Shown in pieces: positions 37,804 through 43,525 of a stretch of 64,000 bases of DNA. A program made the position numbers and the translations under genes. The notes under the pieces were generated by a model that did not search any database, was not told where the DNA came from, and saw only the letters and a list, made by a program, of their open reading frames with translations. Source of the DNA: Candidatus Aenigmatarchaeota archaeon (GTDB lineage: Archaea; Aenigmatarchaeota; Aenigmatarchaeia; CG10238-14; SpSt-28); assembly GCA_038997165.1 (NCBI GenBank), contig JAWBAK010000001.1:472917-536916 (forward strand), read 5' to 3'. Numbering within the stretch: the stretch's first letter is position 1; each line of letters starts with the position of its first letter.

Positions 37804-40002
37804 TTAAGCTTCGATTTCTGGCTTTGGAATTTCCTCTTTTAAACCTTTTCTTTTTCTAATTGATAAAACTGTTTTTTCAAATAATTCTTGAGGCAATTCT
37901 TCATATGTAACTTCTAATATACTATAAAATGCTCTTCCACTTGTCACACTCTTTAATGCAGCATCCAATCCAAACGATTCACTAACAGGTATTTTTGCGA
38001 TTATTATACCAGCACCGCTTTCTTCTTTTATATCTAAAATTTGAGATCTTCTCTTCTGTAATTCATTTATAACATCGCCAACTAATTCATAGGGAACATC
38101 TATTCTAATTATTTGCTTGGGTTCATAAAGAGTTGTATTAGCTAATAACATAGCTTGTCTTATTCCCCATTTAAATGCTGGAATTATTTGTGCAGGACCT
38201 CTATGAACAGGATCTTCATGTAATTCAGCATCAACTATTTTAACTTTTAATTTCATGCATGGTTCTCTAGCTAGTGGTCCATCTTCCATAGCTTCTTCAA
38301 AAGCTCTTATTACCATTTCAATAACTTCATTCATAAATTGTACACCTTTTGTCAAATCAATCAATACATTTCTATTATGTATTGCAACAACGTTTTTTGC
38401 ATCTTCTCTATCCATTCCTAATTTAATCAATTTTTCGATTAATTTTGGATCTTTTTTAGTTTTCAAATATGCATGTTCAGGTAATTCTCCACTAATAAAT
38501 GCTTGATATACACTTTCTTCTAAAGGTTCTACTATTATATAAAATCTATTATGTTTATTTGGACTTTTTGCTTCTATAGGATTTGAATTTTTACCTTTAA
38601 CAACCTCTTTATAAACAACGATTGGATTTGAAACTACTATATCAAAACCAAGTTCTTTCAATTTTCTTTCTACCTTTGCTTCAATATGTAACTCTCCTAA
38701 ACCACTAACTAAGTATTCTCCTGTTTCTGTATTAATTTTTACTCTTAGTACGCTATCTTCTTTTGCAATTTTTTGTAATGCTTCAACTAACTTAGTTAAA
38801 TCTTGTGGATTTTTAGGTTCAATTGCTTTTGTAACAACAGGTTCAAAAATATGTTTTATTTCTACAAAAGGAGTAATAATATCATCTGGCTCACAAATAG
38901 TTTCTCCAGTAAATGCTTCTGGAATTCCTACTATCGCTACAATATTTCCAGCTAGTACTTCATCTACAGGAATTCTTTGAATTCCTTTATAAATTGCGAC
39001 TTGTTGGACTTTAGAAACTTTTTGATTGGAAACTAAGTAAATATCTTTTCCTTTGTAAATTTTTCCGCTAAAAATTCTTGCTGTTGCTACGAAACCAACA
39101 TGTGGATCTGGAATAACTTTTGTAACAATAGCCGCTAGTTTTCCATTAGAATTTACTTCTAACATATCTTTTCCATATTGACTATTCAAATCTCCTGGCC
39201 AAATTTTTTCTAATCTATATTTTATTGCTTCTTTTGGGCTAGGTAAATGTTTAATTATCATATCTAGAACAACTCTATGTAAAGGTGCTTTTTTAGCTAA
39301 TTCTTCTTGCTCATCGTTTAATACCATGTTAATTATATCTTTGAATGTTATTCCTGTTTCTTGCATATATGGTAATGAAATTGCCCATCTTTGTTTTGCA
39401 GAACCAAAAGCTACACTACCATTTTGAACATTTACGTACCAAGAATTTCTAAATTGTTCTTCTGCATATTTTTGTATTAATAAATTAACTTCTTTTATTA
39501 ATCTTTCAAACCTCTCTAACATTTGTTGAGAAGTTAGTTTAACTTCCTTTATTAATCTATCAACTTTATTAATAAATAATACAGGTTTAACTCTTTCTCT
39601 TAATGCTTGTCTAAATACTGTTTCTGTTTGAGGCATTATACCTTCTACAGCACAAATTAACACTATTGTACCATCTACAGCTCTCATAGCTCTAGTAACG
39701 TCGCCACCAAAATCAACATGACCAGGAGTATCTACTAAGTTAATTAAATAATCTTTTCCTTTATAGTTGTGAATCATAGAAACGTTTGCACCATAGATTG
39801 TTAGTTGTCTTTCTCTTTCTTGTTCATCAAACCAAGTATACATTATTTTACCCGCTAACTCCTCAGCTAGCATTCCTGCACCAGCCATTAAGTTATCAGT
39901 TAAAGTTGTTTTTCCATGGTGAACATGTGAAGAAGTAGCAACATTTCTAATTCTATCTGGATCTTTCATAACCTCTTTAATTCTTTCTATCATTTCAGCC
40001 AT
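37804..40002 (-). CDS. fusA: Elongation factor aEF-2
   Basis: HGKTT, DTPGHVDFGG, NKVD, SPNKHNRF, diphthamide loop LHEDPVHRGPAQ. Confidence 0.97.
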   Translation of the reverse strand: MAEMIERIKEVMKDPDRIRNVATSSHVHHGKTTLTDNLMAGAGMLAEELAGKIMYTWFDEQERERQLTIYGANVSMIHNYKGKDYLINLVDTPGHVDFGGDVTRAMRAVDGTIVLICAVEGIMPQTETVFRQALRERVKPVLFINKVDRLIKEVKLTSQQMLERFERLIKEVNLLIQKYAEEQFRNSWYVNVQNGSVAFGSAKQRWAISLPYMQETGITFKDIINMVLNDEQEELAKKAPLHRVVLDMIIKHLPSPKEAIKYRLEKIWPGDLNSQYGKDMLEVNSNGKLAAIVTKVIPDPHVGFVATARIFSGKIYKGKDIYLVSNQKVSKVQQVAIYKGIQRIPVDEVLAGNIVAIVGIPEAFTGETICEPDDIITPFVEIKHIFEPVVTKAIEPKNPQDLTKLVEALQKIAKEDSVLRVKINTETGEYLVSGLGELHIEAKVERKLKELGFDIVVSNPIVVYKEVVKGKNSNPIEAKSPNKHNRFYIIVEPLEESVYQAFISGELPEHAYLKTKKDPKLIEKLIKLGMDREDAKNVVAIHNRNVLIDLTKGVQFMNEVIEMVIRAFEEAMEDGPLAREPCMKLKVKIVDAELHEDPVHRGPAQIIPAFKWGIRQAMLLANTTLYEPKQIIRIDVPYELVGDVINELQKRRSQILDIKEESGAGIIIAKIPVSESFGLDAALKSVTSGRAFYSILEVTYEELPQELFEKTVLSIRKRKGLKEEIPKPEIEA

Positions 40003-40025
40003 AGTAATAAATTATTTAAAAAATA

Positions 40026-40217
40026 CTAATAAGATCTTTTTCTTTTTTTGTTTCCTATTTTTGTTTGCCAGCTATATTTTCTCCATTTAGAATCGGGATA
40101 TCCACAAAAAGCACACCTTTTTTTTCTTATATGATAAGAAAAATGGCCACATCTTCTACATCTTATATGCAAATCTTTTTTGGCTTTTAAACCTAGAGAG
40201 GGAGTACCTTTTGTCAT
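40026..40217 (-). CDS. rpl37e: 50S ribosomal protein eL37
   Basis: [25 protein letters not shown]. Confidence 0.96.
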
Positions 40218-40226
40218 ATTAAATTA

Positions 40227-40448
40227 CTATGCTGTTATTATATAGCTGATAGAATCACCTCTTATTAATATCTCTTCAACTTTTTTTCTTTCGTTTTGAT
40301 TAGATATTTCTACATCATAAAGCCAAAGATTTAGATGTAAGTCAGCTGCTTTTAAGTTTCCTATTATCTCTTCTCCACTTTTAAGTTTTACTATTATTTT
40401 TTTTTCTTTTGCTTTCTCTAAAGCATCTAAAGGTCTATTATCTGCCAT
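40227..40448 (-). CDS. Sm/LSm archaeal protein (SmAP)
   Basis: RPLDAL, G.L.A.DLHLNL.L, IRGD; upstream of L37e as usual. Confidence 0.92.
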   Translation of the reverse strand: MADNRPLDALEKAKEKKIIVKLKSGEEIIGNLKAADLHLNLWLYDVEISNQNERKKVEEILIRGDSISYIITA

Positions 40449-40516: not shown

Positions 40517-41719
40517 ATGGAAGAAGAGAAAAAAATACAATTAAAAAAATTAATAAAAGAATTAGAAAGCTATAGAGGTAGAAAGACAGAATTAATAAGT
40601 TATTATTTACCTCCTAATTATGATATAAATTCTGCAATAGCGCAAATTTCCGCTGAAATAGCTACGGCAAGAAATATTAAAAGTGATATAACTAGAAATA
40701 ATGTAATAGATGCATTAGAAAGAGTAGCAAATGCTTTGAGAAATATAGGTAAAATTGGAAAAAACGGTTTAGTAGTTTTTAGTGGAAATGTTGGAAAAGG
40801 AAAAGATGAATTTAAAGTTTGGGTAATAGAACCACCAGAACCTTTAAATTTAAAAATATATAGATGTGATAATCAATTTTTAGTTGAACCTTTAAAAGAA
40901 TTATTAAAAGAAAAAGAAATTTTTGGATTAATTGTTTTAGATTCTAAAGAAGCTACTATCGGAATTCTTAGAGGTAAAAATATTGAAGTTATTTATAATG
41001 ATGAGTCAAATGTACCATCTAAAACAGTTAAAGGTGGATGGAGTCAACAAAGATATAAAAGAATAAGGGAGCAGGCATTAGAGGAATGGCTTAAAAAAAT
41101 TGGAGAAAAAGCTTCTCAAATATTTTTACAAAATGACGTAAAAGGTATTTTAGTTGGTGGTCCAGGACCGATAAAAGAGGAATTTGTAAAAAACGAATAT
41201 TTAGATTATAGATTAAGAGATAAAATAATTGCAATAAAAGATGTTGGATATACAAATGAATATGGATTACAAGAATTAGTTAATAGAAGTGAAGAAGAGC
41301 TAAGTAAAACTGAAGTAATTAGAGAAAAAACTATTTTGAAAAAATTTTTTGAATCGATAAGTAAATTGCAAAATAATGTTGTTTATAATATTAAAGAGGT
41401 TTTAAAATATTTAGAAATTGGGGCTTTAGAGGAATTAATAATTTCTGAAGATTTTAATTTTGGAAAAATAAAATTATTTTGTAAAAATTGTGGAAATATA
41501 AGAGAAGAAGAAAATTTTTTAGATAAAATAGATAAAAAATGTAATGTTTGTGGAAGAGAAATGGAAATAGAAGAATTTAATAATTATTTTGATAAAATTT
41601 TAGAAATAGCAAAAAATTATAATACAAAAGTTTATATTGTATCTTCTCAAACTTCTGAGGGTCAACAATTTTTATCTTTTGGTGGAATAGGTGGATTTTC
41701 AAGATTTAAATTAGAGTAA
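40517..41719 (+). CDS. prf1: Peptide chain release factor aRF1 (GGQ replaced by GGW)
   Basis: GRKTELIS, NIKS, YRCDNQF, VGGPGPIK, GLQELV, zinc mini-domain, EGQQF..FGGIGG. Confidence 0.92.
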   Translation: MEEEKKIQLKKLIKELESYRGRKTELISYYLPPNYDINSAIAQISAEIATARNIKSDITRNNVIDALERVANALRNIGKIGKNGLVVFSGNVGKGKDEFKVWVIEPPEPLNLKIYRCDNQFLVEPLKELLKEKEIFGLIVLDSKEATIGILRGKNIEVIYNDESNVPSKTVKGGWSQQRYKRIREQALEEWLKKIGEKASQIFLQNDVKGILVGGPGPIKEEFVKNEYLDYRLRDKIIAIKDVGYTNEYGLQELVNRSEEELSKTEVIREKTILKKFFESISKLQNNVVYNIKEVLKYLEIGALEELIISEDFNFGKIKLFCKNCGNIREEENFLDKIDKKCNVCGREMEIEEFNNYFDKILEIAKNYNTKVYIVSSQTSEGQQFLSFGGIGGFSRFKLE

Positions 41720-41767: not shown

Positions 41768-43525
41768 ATGATAATAAATTATAAAATAGAGCTTTTTTTG
41801 ATTTTTTTAACTATTTTATTTTTTTCTTTAATTTCTTTTAGTGGAACTCAAGATAATTGGAAATCTTGTTGTGAAAATAAAAATATTTGCGATTATATAC
41901 CAGAAGAAAGTATTACATTTGAAGGAAAAACATATTATTGTTGTAATATATCAAATACTTATGAATGGAAAGAAGAAGGATGTGAAAAAGAAGAACCACA
42001 ACCGCAACCAGACGATTTATGTTTAGTTGCTCAAAACATTTTTTCTTCAAGATGTCCTTCTTCTTCAGTAAGTATTAGTTTATCTTGTGAAAGTGGAAAA
42101 GTATGTATTTATAAAATAGAAAATGCTTATGTTTGTGATAACACTAATAAATCAAGTAATGTTATTAATAGTGGATATTATTGCATTGATAAAAAAAATC
42201 CTTACTTTGTTGAAATTTCTCATATTCCACAATTAATTGCAACTGCAGATAATACTTATGATCCATATCCAAATTATTTTGTAAATATGCAAGGAAATAG
42301 TGTTTCTTTAACTCCCGAAAAAATTGTTATAGACAAAGAAAATATCATTTTTAATTCAAAAAGTAGAGATGAATATAATGGTCAAGAAATAAGTGGTGTA
42401 AAGTCATCTTCACTAAGATTTACTAAATCTTCTGAAGCTATGAAATCAACTAGTTTTTCAGTATCTTCTTGTCCTAATGGTGCATCATATTCAATACCAG
42501 CAACTCATACAGCGAGTTTCGGAGGATTGAATATTGGATGGGGAAGATTAGAAGCTTATATAGTTGATCAAGCTGGAAATTCTGCTTCTAATTCAAATTA
42601 TCAAGTTTATATATTTTTAGGTGCAAGAGGAGATCAACAAAATCAAAGTGGAACTGATAAAATAGTTTTTCTTAAAACTTATTGGGATTCTAGCAATGAG
42701 ATAAAGATAAGAACAAATAGTTTAGGTGGAAATTATGTTAAAAAAATAAATTGTTTTGGATATAATGATAAATGTATACAAGCAAGAGATATTGTAGGAA
42801 AAACTGACGAGTTTACAGATTGTTTATGGGTGGGTCCTTCAAACGATCCAAAAAATGTTAGAATTTATAGTCTTAAAGAAATAGTAGATTTGGAATCAAA
42901 TGTTAAGGTTAATCCACCATATTTCAAAGATTATGGAAATACAATTATAATTGCTTGGGAAGATATAAAATTAAATGATTTAAGAAAATTGGCAGTTTGC
43001 TCAAAAAACGATACAGGTATTTTAGTTGATTTACCATTTTTAGTTTCTAAAAATATAAAGGATGGATTCCAATTTTTGCCTTCTACTGAAAAAAGATTTA
43101 GTGTAATATGGGAAGTGGAATATGCTAGAGAGCAAAGAGATGTAAATATTGAATGTTATCTAAATCCTACTATAGATGGAAGAAGTGCTTGTACTATAAA
43201 TGACATATTGTTTGGAAATTGTAATTTGGAGTATGGACAAAAATGTAAGTGTGGAAATTCTTTTCCATGTACTCAAAATACTGCAAAAGAAACAATAAAT
43301 AGTTGCTCTGTAGAAAATCCAAGATATTTTAGCGGAATAAATAGAATAATTTGTAAAATGTATGATCCAAGAGATAAAGGTATAAGAGTTGAAATTTGGT
43401 TTAATCATGAATTTTATTTTATGAATGGAAAAATAATAAATAAAAAATCTTTAATATTTGAAGTTGTATATGATACAATAATTCAAAACTTAATAAAAAG
43501 TTTAAAATTATTTAGTTTAATATGA
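41768..43525 (+). CDS. Secreted Cys-rich protein with Ig-like-type segment
   Basis: Signal peptide, many Cys, D..SGV...DQAGN pattern. Confidence 0.55.
   Translation: MIINYKIELFLIFLTILFFSLISFSGTQDNWKSCCENKNICDYIPEESITFEGKTYYCCNISNTYEWKEEGCEKEEPQPQPDDLCLVAQNIFSSRCPSSSVSISLSCESGKVCIYKIENAYVCDNTNKSSNVINSGYYCIDKKNPYFVEISHIPQLIATADNTYDPYPNYFVNMQGNSVSLTPEKIVIDKENIIFNSKSRDEYNGQEISGVKSSSLRFTKSSEAMKSTSFSVSSCPNGASYSIPATHTASFGGLNIGWGRLEAYIVDQAGNSASNSNYQVYIFLGARGDQQNQSGTDKIVFLKTYWDSSNEIKIRTNSLGGNYVKKINCFGYNDKCIQARDIVGKTDEFTDCLWVGPSNDPKNVRIYSLKEIVDLESNVKVNPPYFKDYGNTIIIAWEDIKLNDLRKLAVCSKNDTGILVDLPFLVSKNIKDGFQFLPSTEKRFSVIWEVEYAREQRDVNIECYLNPTIDGRSACTINDILFGNCNLEYGQKCKCGNSFPCTQNTAKETINSCSVENPRYFSGINRIICKMYDPRDKGIRVEIWFNHEFYFMNGKIINKKSLIFEVVYDTIIQNLIKSLKLFSLI

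What the first reader, a model, noticed from the sequence alone, without database searches (positions are those of the whole stretch)
41033..41047. aRF1 with GGW instead of the universal GGQ motif
Seen: GGT GGA TGG AGT CAA CAA AGA = GGWSQQR in an otherwise complete aRF1 (NIKS and YxCxxxF intact). Q->W from CAA/CAG needs at least two substitutions, so a single sequencing error is unlikely. Known: the GGQ Gln is the conserved catalytic, methylated residue of class I release factors, while a GGxSQ-type loop characterises Vms1-like/baeRF1 relatives. Inference: the catalytic Gln may be shifted by two residues, giving a canonical stop-codon reader with a non-canonical hydrolysis loop. TAA, TAG and TGA all end genes here, so there is no sign of code reassignment.
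Basis: partly seen in the sequence, partly recalled or inferred. Interest (0 to 1): 0.8.

Follow-up and report, generated by a model that had tools for sequence, protein, structure and literature searches.

The report
Release factor lacking its universal catalytic glutamine
The only stop-codon release factor of this tiny archaeon has tryptophan where all textbooks place an invariant catalytic glutamine, and the same rebuilt loop, with loss of the enzyme that methylates that glutamine, recurs in many archaeal lineages.

Summary
Window 40517..41719 (+) encodes a complete three-domain aRF1 (TIGR03676 445.6 bits, cut-off 234.7) with NIKS and YxCxxxF intact, but GGW-SQ where GGQ-SA is expected.

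- **Sole copy:** it is the only eRF1-family gene in a 652-kb genome that is about 94.5% complete. I found no Pelota, VLRF1 or bacterial RF domain.
- **Not an error:** of 126 Aenigmatarchaeota genomes whose motif I read, 75 have GG[W/M/F/Y/A], and 70 of those 75 have Ser-Gln next.
- **Recurrent:** the same loop sits in the sole aRF1 of Desulfurococcales-, Nitrososphaerota-, Micrarchaeota/Iainarchaeota- and other MAGs. On an aRF1 tree the change needs at least 9 events, and a single origin is rejected (AU p = 0.011).
- **Methyltransferase lost:** the GGQ methyltransferase Mtq2 is found in 44 of 51 GGQ genomes. In the 75 GGx genomes only two borderline, atypical hits turned up.
- **Known elsewhere:** GGWSQ is the loop of bacterial baeRF family 10 ("Vms1-like") hydrolases and fits the GGxSQ motif of aVLRF-1/acVLRF-1.

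Most likely the catalytic amide moved two residues, through GGQ-SQ intermediates that still exist. This is inferred, not shown, and a few variants have no Gln in the loop at all.

I found no paper reporting it. Earlier notes of this scan saw the intein at this site on other DNA, but not the glutamine loss.

The parts
40517..41719 (+). aRF1 gene (400 aa plus stop), the only eRF1-family gene found in the genome
   Evidence: ORF. TIGR03676 aRF1 equivalog 445.6 bits against cut-off 234.7. Pfam eRF1_1/2/3. Sole copy. AF2 model pLDDT 86.2 matches aRF1 4af1 at E 1e-40 and eRF1 5lzt at TM 0.80.
40544..40906 (+). N domain (eRF1_1, residues 10-130), stop-codon recognition
   Evidence: PF03463 57 bits, residues 10-130.
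40673..40684 (+). NIKS motif (residues 53-56), intact
   Evidence: Read. N53 and K55 are invariant in alignment A1.
40859..40879 (+). YxCxxxF motif (YRCDNQF, residues 115-121), intact
   Evidence: Read. Y115, C117 and F121 are invariant in A1.
40922..41305 (+). M domain (eRF1_2, residues 136-263), which carries the catalytic loop
   Evidence: PF03464 135 bits. It also scores 50-52 bits on acVLRF1 and baeRF_family10.
41033..41041 (+). GGW (G173 G174 W175): Trp codon TGG at the position of the GGQ glutamine
   Evidence: Gap-free alignment to GGQ of 4af1 and human eRF1. Same residue in 43 of the 126 phylum genomes read.
41042..41047 (+). [quoted passage not shown]
   Evidence: Ser-Gln follows GGx in 70 of 75 GGx genomes but in only 3 of 51 GGQ genomes. 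The helix starts at residue 176 in the model. Role inferred, not shown.
41315..41713 (+). C domain (eRF1_3, residues 267-399), with a CxxC...CxxC insert at residues 322-345 (41480-41551)
   Evidence: PF03465 81 bits. C322, C342 and C345 are nearly invariant in A1. The presence of this domain excludes the aVLRF-1 architecture.
37804..40448 (-). Neighbouring translation genes, for context only: EF-2 (37804-40002), ribosomal protein L37e (40026-40217), LSm protein (40227-40448)
   Evidence: Pfam hits.

Best explanation
This is the organism's one working class-I release factor: a classical aRF1 that still reads stop codons through NIKS and YxCxxxF. Its peptide-release loop has been rebuilt from GGQ-SA to GGW-SQ. 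I infer that the catalytic amide now comes from Gln177, two residues downstream, as in the GGxSQ/GGWSQ loops of Vms1-like (VLRF, baeRF family 10) hydrolases. The two glycines and the backbone NH at position 175 would keep their usual roles. The bulky hydrophobic residue at 175 (W here; M, F or Y in relatives) would take over the packing role of the N5-methyl-glutamine, so methylation is no longer needed and Mtq2 has been lost. The likely route is GGQ-SA to GGQ-SQ (both Gln present) to GGW-SQ. Shown: the sequence, the sole copy, lineage-wide conservation, recurrence, the co-absence of Mtq2, and identity of the loop with the VLRF/baeRF loops. Inferred: that Gln177 is catalytic, what W175 does, and the order of events.
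For: The protein is real, conserved and the sole copy.
- aRF1 equivalog score 445.6 bits, three domains, aRF1/eRF1 fold.
- No other eRF1-family, Pelota, VLRF1 or bacterial RF-1 domain in the 94.5%-complete genome.

The change is lineage-wide.
- All 50 aRF1 genes read in the query's order are GGx.
- Of 126 phylum genomes read: Q 51, W 43, M 28, Y 2, F 1, A 1.

Ser-Gln is coupled to the change.
- Ser-Gln follows in 70 of 75 GGx genomes and in 3 of 51 GGQ genomes.
- Among 146 diverse representatives it follows in 24 of 26 GGx and 18 of 120 GGQ.
- GGQ-SQ forms exist and sit next to GGx lineages on the tree: Nitrososphaerota L300 lies among five GGQSQ neighbours, and P0229 is sister to P0204.

The change recurs.
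- The GGWSQ gene is the top and only aRF1 (435-487 bits, three domains) in 5 of 5 non-Aenigmatarchaeota archaeal genomes tested.
- GGx needs 11 changes on a 135-row tree, at least 9 of them forced by well-supported branches.
- One clade is rejected: lnL -291, p-AU 0.0107.

Mtq2 is absent alongside it.
- TIGR00537 is over its cut-off in 44 of 51 GGQ genomes.
- Among 75 GGx genomes there are 2 hits, both borderline 380-aa atypical proteins.
- Inside family f38, the four genomes with a real Mtq2 are exactly the four with GGQ.
- 0 of 5 outside GGW genomes have it, and the own genome's best hit is 26 bits.
- HEMK2 prefers G-Q-X3-R (abstract), a context that S-Q177 lacks.

The same loop is known elsewhere.
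- aVLRF-1 and acVLRF-1 carry GGxSQ (passage).
- Bacterial baeRF family 10 proteins, named Vms1/Ankzf1 family peptidyl-tRNA hydrolase by NCBI, carry V-P-x-K-x3-GGWSQ-x-R-[FY], in 118 of 120 close homologues.

Backbone-amide catalysis by the residue at the Gln position is the accepted view for bacterial RFs (passage in PMC6742477).
Against: - No biochemistry exists for any of these proteins. All genomes are MAGs, none complete, so absence of Mtq2 or of a second aRF1 is not proven in any single genome.
- Gln at +2 is not universal. GGWSA[N/S] occurs in 5 of 75 genomes (G264, G290, G316, G324, G347). GGMSAA, GGMSAG and GGMSSG occur in 4 of 120 clusters (P0039, P0041, P0045, P0036). P0124 has GGWSA and P0243 has GGS|intein|SA. 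So some release factors apparently work with no Gln in the loop at all.
- The residue at 175 is labile (W, M, F, Y, A, S; at least 4-6 changes within one order), which argues against a single precise role.
- Within the phylum only 3 phylogenetically independent contrasts link the motif with Mtq2. All 3 agree, but the sign test gives p = 0.25. The 5 outside lineages have no matched GGQ controls.
- 7 of 51 GGQ genomes also lack a detectable Mtq2.
- Published mutagenesis says GGQ mutations inactivate RF1/RF2 (passage), and yeast Q182E could not be propagated (passage).
Confidence: 0.6

Rival explanations
1. The glutamine side chain is simply dispensable in these lineages. Release is catalysed by the GG-positioned backbone amide of residue 175 alone, and Gln177 has no catalytic role. 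The Ser-Gln preference would reflect helix capping or rRNA contact.
For: Variants with no Gln in the loop exist. The accepted bacterial mechanism uses the Gln backbone amide (passage). [quoted passage not shown] The residue at 175 is labile.
Against: Ser-Gln accompanies the loss in 70 of 75 genomes and 24 of 26 representatives, against 3 of 51 and 18 of 120 with GGQ. It reappears in independent origins. The same GGWSQ is conserved in distant hydrolase families. Four of the five GGWSA forms carry Asn at the next position, another amide.
Confidence: 0.25
2. The protein no longer hydrolyses peptidyl-tRNA. It only recognises stop codons and triggers ribosome splitting, in the manner of Pelota, and the peptide is released afterwards by another hydrolase such as Pth2.
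For: Pelota/Dom34, the eRF1 paralogue without the Gln, is regarded as catalytically inactive (passage). Pth2 is present. Pelota is missing from this genome, so the aRF1 might be covering for it.
Against: The two Gly, the flanking V-P-x-K and the R-[YF] are invariant. In Dom34 and inactive baeRF families this loop decays (passages). Pth2 is found in the archaeal controls generally. Pelota is present in many GGx families (f5 19 of 23; most of f35-f39) and missing from many GGQ families (f21 8 of 44; f22 0 of 6), so its loss is unrelated.
Confidence: 0.08
3. Artefact, pseudogene or recoding: a sequencing error, a decaying gene, or TGG being read as Gln.
For: None beyond the oddity itself.
Against: The residue is conserved in 75 genomes and in dozens of independent metagenome clusters from NCBI, JGI, ENA and Logan. 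The position carries W, M, F, Y or A, which are encoded by unrelated codons. TGG is used at 0.86% of codons, like an ordinary Trp codon, and all three stops are in use. The frame is intact and the family score is high.
Confidence: 0.01
4. A rescue paralogue (aVLRF-1 or baeRF-type), with a canonical aRF1 hidden in the unassembled part of the genome.
For: The loop is of VLRF/baeRF type. The genome is 94.5% complete, not closed. One other archaeon (G375) does have an extra NIKS-less GGWSQ paralogue.
Against: aVLRF-1 lacks the C domain and has a long N-terminal coiled coil (passage), whereas this protein has eRF1_3 and starts at the N domain. Its acVLRF1 NCBIfam score is 41 against a cut-off of 125. 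It groups with the GGQ aRF1s of its own phylum. A hidden GGQ copy would have to be missing from all 75 GGx genomes.
Confidence: 0.02

Closest known systems
Classical aRF1/eRF1 (TIGR03676; solved examples 4af1, 3agk, human eRF1 1dt9)
   Same: Orthologous by score, three-domain architecture, NIKS, YxCxxxF, fold and phylogenetic position. It is presumably the stop-codon reader delivered by aEF1-alpha.
   Different: Trp replaces the Gln of GGQ, which reviews call universally conserved (passages). Gln replaces the Ala/Ser two residues on. The cognate Mtq2 methyltransferase is absent.
Bacterial baeRF family 10 (PF18854; NCBI name 'Vms1/Ankzf1 family peptidyl-tRNA hydrolase')
   Same: Identical catalytic-loop sequence V-P-x-K-x3-G-G-W-S-Q-x-R-[FY]. 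Burroughs & Aravind single out family 10 as keeping a conserved Gln and being potentially active (passage).
   Different: These proteins have no NIKS-type stop-codon domain, sit in bacteria next to ordinary RF1/RF2, and have a predicted rescue or quality-control role, not general termination. The window protein scores 52 bits on this family and 135 on eRF1_2.
aVLRF-1 and acVLRF-1 (Burroughs & Aravind 2019, PMC6514570)
   Same: GGxSQ motif, in which the downstream Gln is taken to be catalytic (passage).
   Different: aVLRF-1 lacks the C-terminal domain and has a long N-terminal coiled coil. acVLRF-1 has lost the stop-codon domain (passage). The window protein has neither of these architectures.
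Eukaryotic Vms1/ANKZF1 (eVLRF-1)
   Same: An eRF1-superfamily peptidyl-tRNA hydrolase whose Gln is not in a GGQ context. The paper describes a GxuQ motif (passage).
   Different: It acts on split 60S subunits in ribosome quality control without reading a codon (my recall). Its loop length and domains are different.
Pelota/Dom34
   Same: An eRF1 paralogue that lacks the catalytic Gln.
   Different: It lacks NIKS, YxCxxxF and the whole loop tip (passages). The window protein scores 71 bits on TIGR00111 against a cut-off of 177.65.

Membership tests
Classical aRF1/eRF1 | Whole-protein match to the aRF1 equivalog model above its curated cut-off | tested here: met
   TIGR03676 445.6 bits against 234.7, covering residues 6-398.
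Classical aRF1/eRF1 | Three domains: N (eRF1_1), M (eRF1_2), C (eRF1_3) | tested here: met
   PF03463 57 bits, PF03464 135 bits, PF03465 81 bits. Fold match to 4af1 at E 1e-40.
Classical aRF1/eRF1 | NIKS and YxCxxxF stop-codon recognition motifs | tested here: met
   NIKS at residues 53-56 and YRCDNQF at 115-121.
Classical aRF1/eRF1 | GGQ motif with the catalytic, methylated glutamine | tested here: not met
   G173 G174 W175, aligned without gaps to GGQ. By descent it is an aRF1 orthologue, but it fails this defining motif, so I file it as a variant and not as a standard member.
Classical aRF1/eRF1 | Stop-codon-dependent peptidyl-tRNA hydrolysis on the ribosome | not testable with these tools
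   Needs a reconstituted release assay.
Mtq2-Trm112 substrate | Mtq2 (HemK2-type) methyltransferase encoded in the genome | tested here: not met
   TIGR00537 best 26.4 bits against cut-off 87, whereas all 4 archaeal controls pass. Trm112 is present at 43 bits.
Mtq2-Trm112 substrate | Target Gln in a G-Q-X3-R context | tested here: not met
   The context of Q177 is S-Q-Q-R-Y-K. The preference is taken from the abstract of PMC10804810, which concerns the human enzyme.
aVLRF-1 | GGxSQ loop | tested here: met
   GGWSQ. Motif from the passage.
aVLRF-1 | No C-terminal Pelota-type domain, and a long N-terminal coiled coil | tested here: not met
   eRF1_3 is present at residues 267-399 and the N domain starts at residue 10. 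Definition from the passage.
acVLRF-1 / baeRF family 10 | Loss of the stop-codon-binding N domain; family-model score | tested here: not met
   The N domain with NIKS is present. NF041024 scores 41 bits against cut-off 125. The Pfam acVLRF1 and baeRF_family10 hits of 50-52 bits are weaker than eRF1_2 at 135 bits.
Pelota/Dom34 | Pelota equivalog score; absence of NIKS and the loop tip | tested here: not met
   TIGR00111 71 bits against 177.65. NIKS and the loop are present.

The most novel reading that the evidence does not exclude
The 'universal' GGQ glutamine has been displaced from the sole, stop-codon-reading release factor many times independently in archaea. Each time the result is the same Vms1-like GG[W/hydrophobic]-SQ loop, and each time the Mtq2 methyltransferase is lost. 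That would make it a second, methylation-independent chemical solution to peptide release, operating in ordinary translation termination and not only in ribosome rescue.
Probability: 0.5. Interest if true: 0.9.

Novelty: new variant of a known kind. Interest (0 to 1): 0.8.

Why it matters
GGQ is the textbook invariant of class-I release factors in all three domains of life, and the role of its glutamine and of the methylation has been argued over for decades. Here nature has run the mutagenesis. Whole lineages live with W, M, F, Y or A at that position in their only release factor, without the methyltransferase.

If Gln177 is the new catalytic residue, canonical termination and Vms1-type rescue would share an interchangeable loop design, and the existing GGQ-SQ forms mark a viable path between the two. 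If no Gln is needed at all, as in the GGM-SA forms, the side chain is dispensable in vivo.

Either answer can be tested directly with a handful of point mutants. It also matters for annotation, because pipelines and reviewers that use GGQ as a criterion for an active release factor would misjudge these proteins.

Tried and rejected
- **Hidden back-up factors in the genome.** I searched for a second eRF1_2 domain (the only extra hit is a membrane protein), Pelota, the bacterial RF-1/ArfB domain and acVLRF1. None was found.
- **Codon reassignment.** Rejected.
- **Pelota loss as a correlate.** Rejected. Pelota is patchy in both motif classes.
- **Compensating change in the peptidyl-transferase centre.** In a query-anchored alignment of the last 1035 nt of 23S rRNA from 28 relatives, only 2 columns separate the groups, and neither is at a core position. 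The helix-closing pair association is weak (see Noticed in passing).
- **Single origin with transfer.** Rejected by the tree and the AU test.
- **Papers I wanted but that are not held.** Shaw & Green 2007 and Seit-Nebi 2001. What I say about Gln mutants keeping partial activity rests on a reference title and on recall.
- **Literature searches for a prior report.** Searches found no paper linking GGQ loss to aRF1, DPANN or Aenigmatarchaeota. The one supplement of PMC6514570 held as text contains none of the motif strings. Its figures and any other supplements were not seen.
- **Idea left untested.** Homing of the intein at this site might spread the loop variant by co-conversion of the flanks.
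Full report
**Observation.** The window reads GGT GGA TGG AGT CAA CAA AGA at 41033-41053, inside a 400-aa ORF at 40517..41719 on the + strand. The protein matches the aRF1 equivalog model TIGR03676 at 445.6 bits (cut-off 234.7) over residues 6-398. It has the three Pfam domains eRF1_1, eRF1_2 and eRF1_3. NIKS (residues 53-56) and YRCDNQF (115-121) are intact. HMMER alignments to solved aRF1 4af1 and to human eRF1 place W175 opposite the Gln of GGQ, and Q177 opposite the Ala, with no gap. An AlphaFold model built on a 34-sequence alignment (mean pLDDT 86.2) finds aRF1 4af1 (E 1e-40) and ribosome-bound eRF1 (5lzt, TM 0.80) as best structural matches. The loop spans residues 164-175 and the following helix starts at residue 176. 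The gene lies next to EF-2, ribosomal protein L37e and an LSm gene.

**Is it the only release factor?** The window belongs to a 651,930-bp assembly in 4 contigs, estimated 94.5% complete.
- PF03464 at E<=10 finds this gene and one chance hit in a membrane protein.
- The Pelota model finds only this gene, below its cut-off.
- The bacterial RF-1/ArfB domain finds nothing.
- The acVLRF1 model finds only this gene.
- Pth2 and Trm112 are present.
- All three stop codons end long ORFs in the window (TAA 24, TGA 11, TAG 6 of 41), and TGG makes up 0.86% of codons.

**Not an error but a lineage trait.** Source names of near-identical proteins point to Candidatus Aenigmatarchaeota. In the query's order I read 50 aRF1 genes, and all 50 lack the Gln: W 18, M 28, F 1, Y 2, A 1. 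Across the phylum sample (371 genomes, of which 344 have an aRF1 match) I read 126 genomes from 39 of the tool's 40 family codes: Q 51, W 43, M 28, Y 2, F 1, A 1.
- GGx families: f1-f7, f18, f27, f34-f37 and f39.
- GGQ families: the remaining sampled ones.
- Mixed: f38.

After GGx the next two residues are Ser-Gln in 70 of 75 genomes and Ser-Ala in 5. After GGQ they are SS 25, SA 23 and SQ 3 of 51, counting the residues behind the two inteins.

**Coupling to the methyltransferase.** The archaeal Mtq2 model (TIGR00537, cut-off 87 bits) is passed in 127 of 371 phylum genomes.
- Among genomes whose motif I read, it is passed in 44 of 51 GGQ genomes.
- Among the 75 GGx genomes there are 2 hits, in G267 and G034.
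- Those two are 379- and 384-aa HemK-like proteins with long extra N- and C-terminal regions, scoring 88.8 and 85.7 bits. They are unlike the roughly 200-aa Mtq2 of the GGQ genomes.
- Inside family f38, the four genomes with a clear Mtq2 (G291, G292, G297, G298; 92.6-132.7 bits) are exactly the four whose aRF1 reads GGQ.
- By family tallies at E<=1e-15, the figures are 126 of 153 genomes in GGQ families and 24 of 218 in GGx families. This is my sum of the tallies, with families classed from sampled members, f38 counted as GGx and the unread f30 counted as GGQ. Most of the 24 are a paralogous methyltransferase scoring 70-85 bits, which also occurs beside Mtq2 in GGQ genomes.
- Relatives are not independent. 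On the gene tree there are only 3 independent contrasts. All 3 go the same way, and the sign test gives p = 0.25.
- 7 of 51 GGQ genomes lack a detectable Mtq2.
- Pelota does not follow the motif.

**Beyond the phylum.** Of 150 representatives of 50%-identity clusters from an exhaustive HMMER search, 120 read GGQ and 26 read GGx (W 14, M 7, F 3, A 1, S 1). In 3 no motif was found, and 1 is a C-terminal fragment. Ser-Gln follows in 24 of the 26 GGx and in 18 of the 120 GGQ.

By their titles and flanking sequence:
- about 83 are Aenigmatarchaeota or unnamed archaeal MAGs with Aenigmatarchaeota-like flanks;
- 11 form a group named Desulfurococcales, Desulfurococcaceae, Thermoprotei or Sulfolobales;
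- 3 are Nitrososphaerota or Thermoproteota;
- 6 are of Iainarchaeum/Micrarchaeota type;
- 2 are Woesearchaeota or Nanoarchaeia;
- 1 is 'Euryarchaeota UBA186';
- 13 are bacterial.

In all 5 non-Aenigmatarchaeota archaeal genomes I examined, the GGWSQ gene is the top and only aRF1-like gene. It has NIK[S/L/D], and 4 of 5 have YxCxxxF. It has all three domains and scores 435-487 bits on TIGR03676. None of the five has Mtq2 over the cut-off; the best is 54 bits. All of these are MAGs of unknown completeness.

**One origin or many?**
- On a 107-row tree of the phylum's aRF1s (17 intein-bearing and 3 short rows left out; 4 Thermococcales as outgroup), GGx needs at least 3 changes. GGQ-bearing G297/G298 nest in a GGW clade, and GGW-bearing G162 lies beside GGQ-bearing G104.
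- On a 135-row tree that adds the five outside proteins and 81 representatives (intein-bearing rows and rows outside 330-450 aa left out), GGx needs 11 changes. At least 9 are forced by branches with SH-aLRT >= 95. The mean for shuffled labels is 33, and 0 of 500 shuffles were as low.
- The best tree holding all 38 GGx rows together is 291 log-likelihood units worse, p-AU 0.0107.
- These are quick LG+G4 trees, and the motif columns were not removed, which can only favour grouping.
- GGQ-SQ proteins are the nearest neighbours of several GGx lineages: Nitrososphaerota L300 lies among five GGQSQ proteins, and P0229 is sister to P0204.

**What the loop resembles.** Burroughs & Aravind (PMC6514570; I read passages only) state the following.
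- Classical aeRF-1 carries GGQ, while aVLRF-1 and acVLRF-1 carry GGxSQ.
- aVLRF-1 lacks the C-terminal domain and has a long N-terminal coiled coil.
- acVLRF-1 has lost the stop-codon domain.
- baeRF family 10 keeps a conserved Gln and may be active.

The 13 bacterial pattern hits carry V-P-G-K-H-x-Q-GGWSQ-x-R-[FY]-Q-R-H. Five that I read in full lack NIK and score best on baeRF_family10, at 77-155 bits. NCBI names them Vms1/Ankzf1 family peptidyl-tRNA hydrolase. 118 of 120 close homologues of one of them (72-100% identical, so a narrow sample) have GGWSQ. The window protein therefore combines a classical aRF1 body with the loop of the Vms1-like hydrolases. Its flanks match those of GGQ relatives in its own phylum, so the loop was remodelled in place and the domain was not swapped.

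**Mechanism.**
- Shown: the sequence facts above.
- From the literature: the RF loop is placed beside the ester bond and the Gln backbone amide is held to catalyse hydrolysis (passage in PMC6742477). GGQ is called universally conserved, and its mutation inactivates RF1/RF2 (passages). The human Mtq2 orthologue prefers G-Q-X3-R (abstract).
- Inferred: Gln177 now supplies the side-chain amide. The hydrophobic residue at 175 replaces the packing role of the methylated Gln, so Mtq2 lost its substrate. The path ran through GGQ-SQ.
- Against: forms with no Gln in the loop exist. These are GGWSA[N/S] in 5 of 75 genomes; GGMSAA, GGMSAG and GGMSSG in 4 of 120 clusters; P0124; and P0243. Residue 175 is also labile. 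These keep the rival 'side chain dispensable' reading alive.

**Prior knowledge.** Six full-text searches found no paper reporting an aRF1/eRF1 without the GGQ Gln, or linking this to DPANN or to Mtq2 loss. The only paper mentioning GGxSQ or aVLRF is PMC6514570, and the one supplement of it that is held as text contains none of the motif strings. Its figures were not seen. Earlier notes of this scan describe the intein at this site in at least 8 other genomes, but nothing on the Gln loss.

**Verdict.** This is a real, conserved and apparently unreported natural exception to the GGQ rule in the sole release factor, recurrent across archaea and coupled to loss of Mtq2. I classify it as a new variant of a known kind. 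The mechanism is plausible but untested.

Noticed in passing
Relatives' aRF1 genes: L033-L049, L142-L145; representatives P0122-P0243. Not in the window.: A class-1 intein (Cys1 ... His-Asn | Ser+1) sits exactly between GGx and S. It is in 17 of 50 aRF1 genes of the query's order, always after GGM, as mini forms (133-146 aa) or large forms (303-448 aa). It is in 56 of 146 diverse representatives: 41 after GGQ and 15 after GGW/M/F/S. The window's own gene has none. Whether homing spreads the loop variant by co-conversion of the flanks is untested.
   Followed up: partly
Own genome G000 and phylum: Pelota/Dom34 was not found in this genome or its genus (0 of 7). It is rare in families f1-f4, f6 and f27, and also in GGQ families f21, f22, f25 and f40, yet present in f5 and f35-f39. 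So some of these archaea appear to have no eRF1-family rescue factor at all.
   Followed up: partly
Own 23S rRNA, G000:C1:322485-325518 (L146:1501-4534); outside the window: In the last 1035 nt of 23S, only 2 columns separate 15 GGx from 13 GGQ relatives. One is the closing pair of the helix with the bulged A next to the peptidyl-transferase centre (E. coli helix 93 by my recalled numbering). It is Watson-Crick in 14 of 14 readable GGx genomes, and G.U in 9 of 12 GGQ genomes, including G298, which differs from its GGW family-mates. E. coli has G-C together with GGQ factors, so this is no necessary link, and the independent contrasts are few.
   Followed up: partly
23S rRNA of relatives (L147-L176): The block homologous to E. 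coli GAUGUCGG, which carries drug-site nucleotides by my recall, varies at its 2nd and 3rd positions across this phylum in both motif classes (GCUG, GUUG, GCCG, GAUG). Many 23S matches are broken into pieces, which suggests rRNA introns.
   Followed up: no
L303 (G375:C26:50112-53441): One archaeal MAG ('Euryarchaeota UBA186') has, besides its GGWSQ aRF1, a second 379-aa eRF1-like protein. It has GGWSQ but no NIKS, and scores best on baeRF_family10 (72.8 bits). This is an archaeal member of a family described as bacterial.
   Followed up: partly
L306 (G267:C5:413-1552), L307 (G034:C23, locus 452-1606): These are roughly 380-aa HemK/Mtq2-like methyltransferases with about 110 extra N-terminal and 130 extra C-terminal residues, found in two GGW genomes. 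They score at the Mtq2 threshold (88.8 and 85.7 bits). Their substrate is unknown.
   Followed up: partly
window 41480-41551 (aRF1 residues 322-345): The C domain carries a CxxC...CxxC insert (a probable zinc ribbon). It is conserved in most relatives (C322, C342 and C345 nearly invariant) but absent from the roughly 350-375-aa forms in other lineages.
   Followed up: no
window 41768-43525 (+): A 585-aa Cys-rich protein with a hydrophobic N-terminus lies directly downstream of aRF1. It has no Pfam match at E<=0.001.
   Followed up: no
Relatives' aRF1 N domains: The NIKS motif varies among relatives that keep the rest of the protein: NIKL (G008, P0007-P0012, Desulfurococcaceae L298), NVKS (family f5), NVKD (G053, G047) and NIKD (Nitrososphaerota L300). 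L298 also lacks a recognisable YxCxxxF.
   Followed up: no
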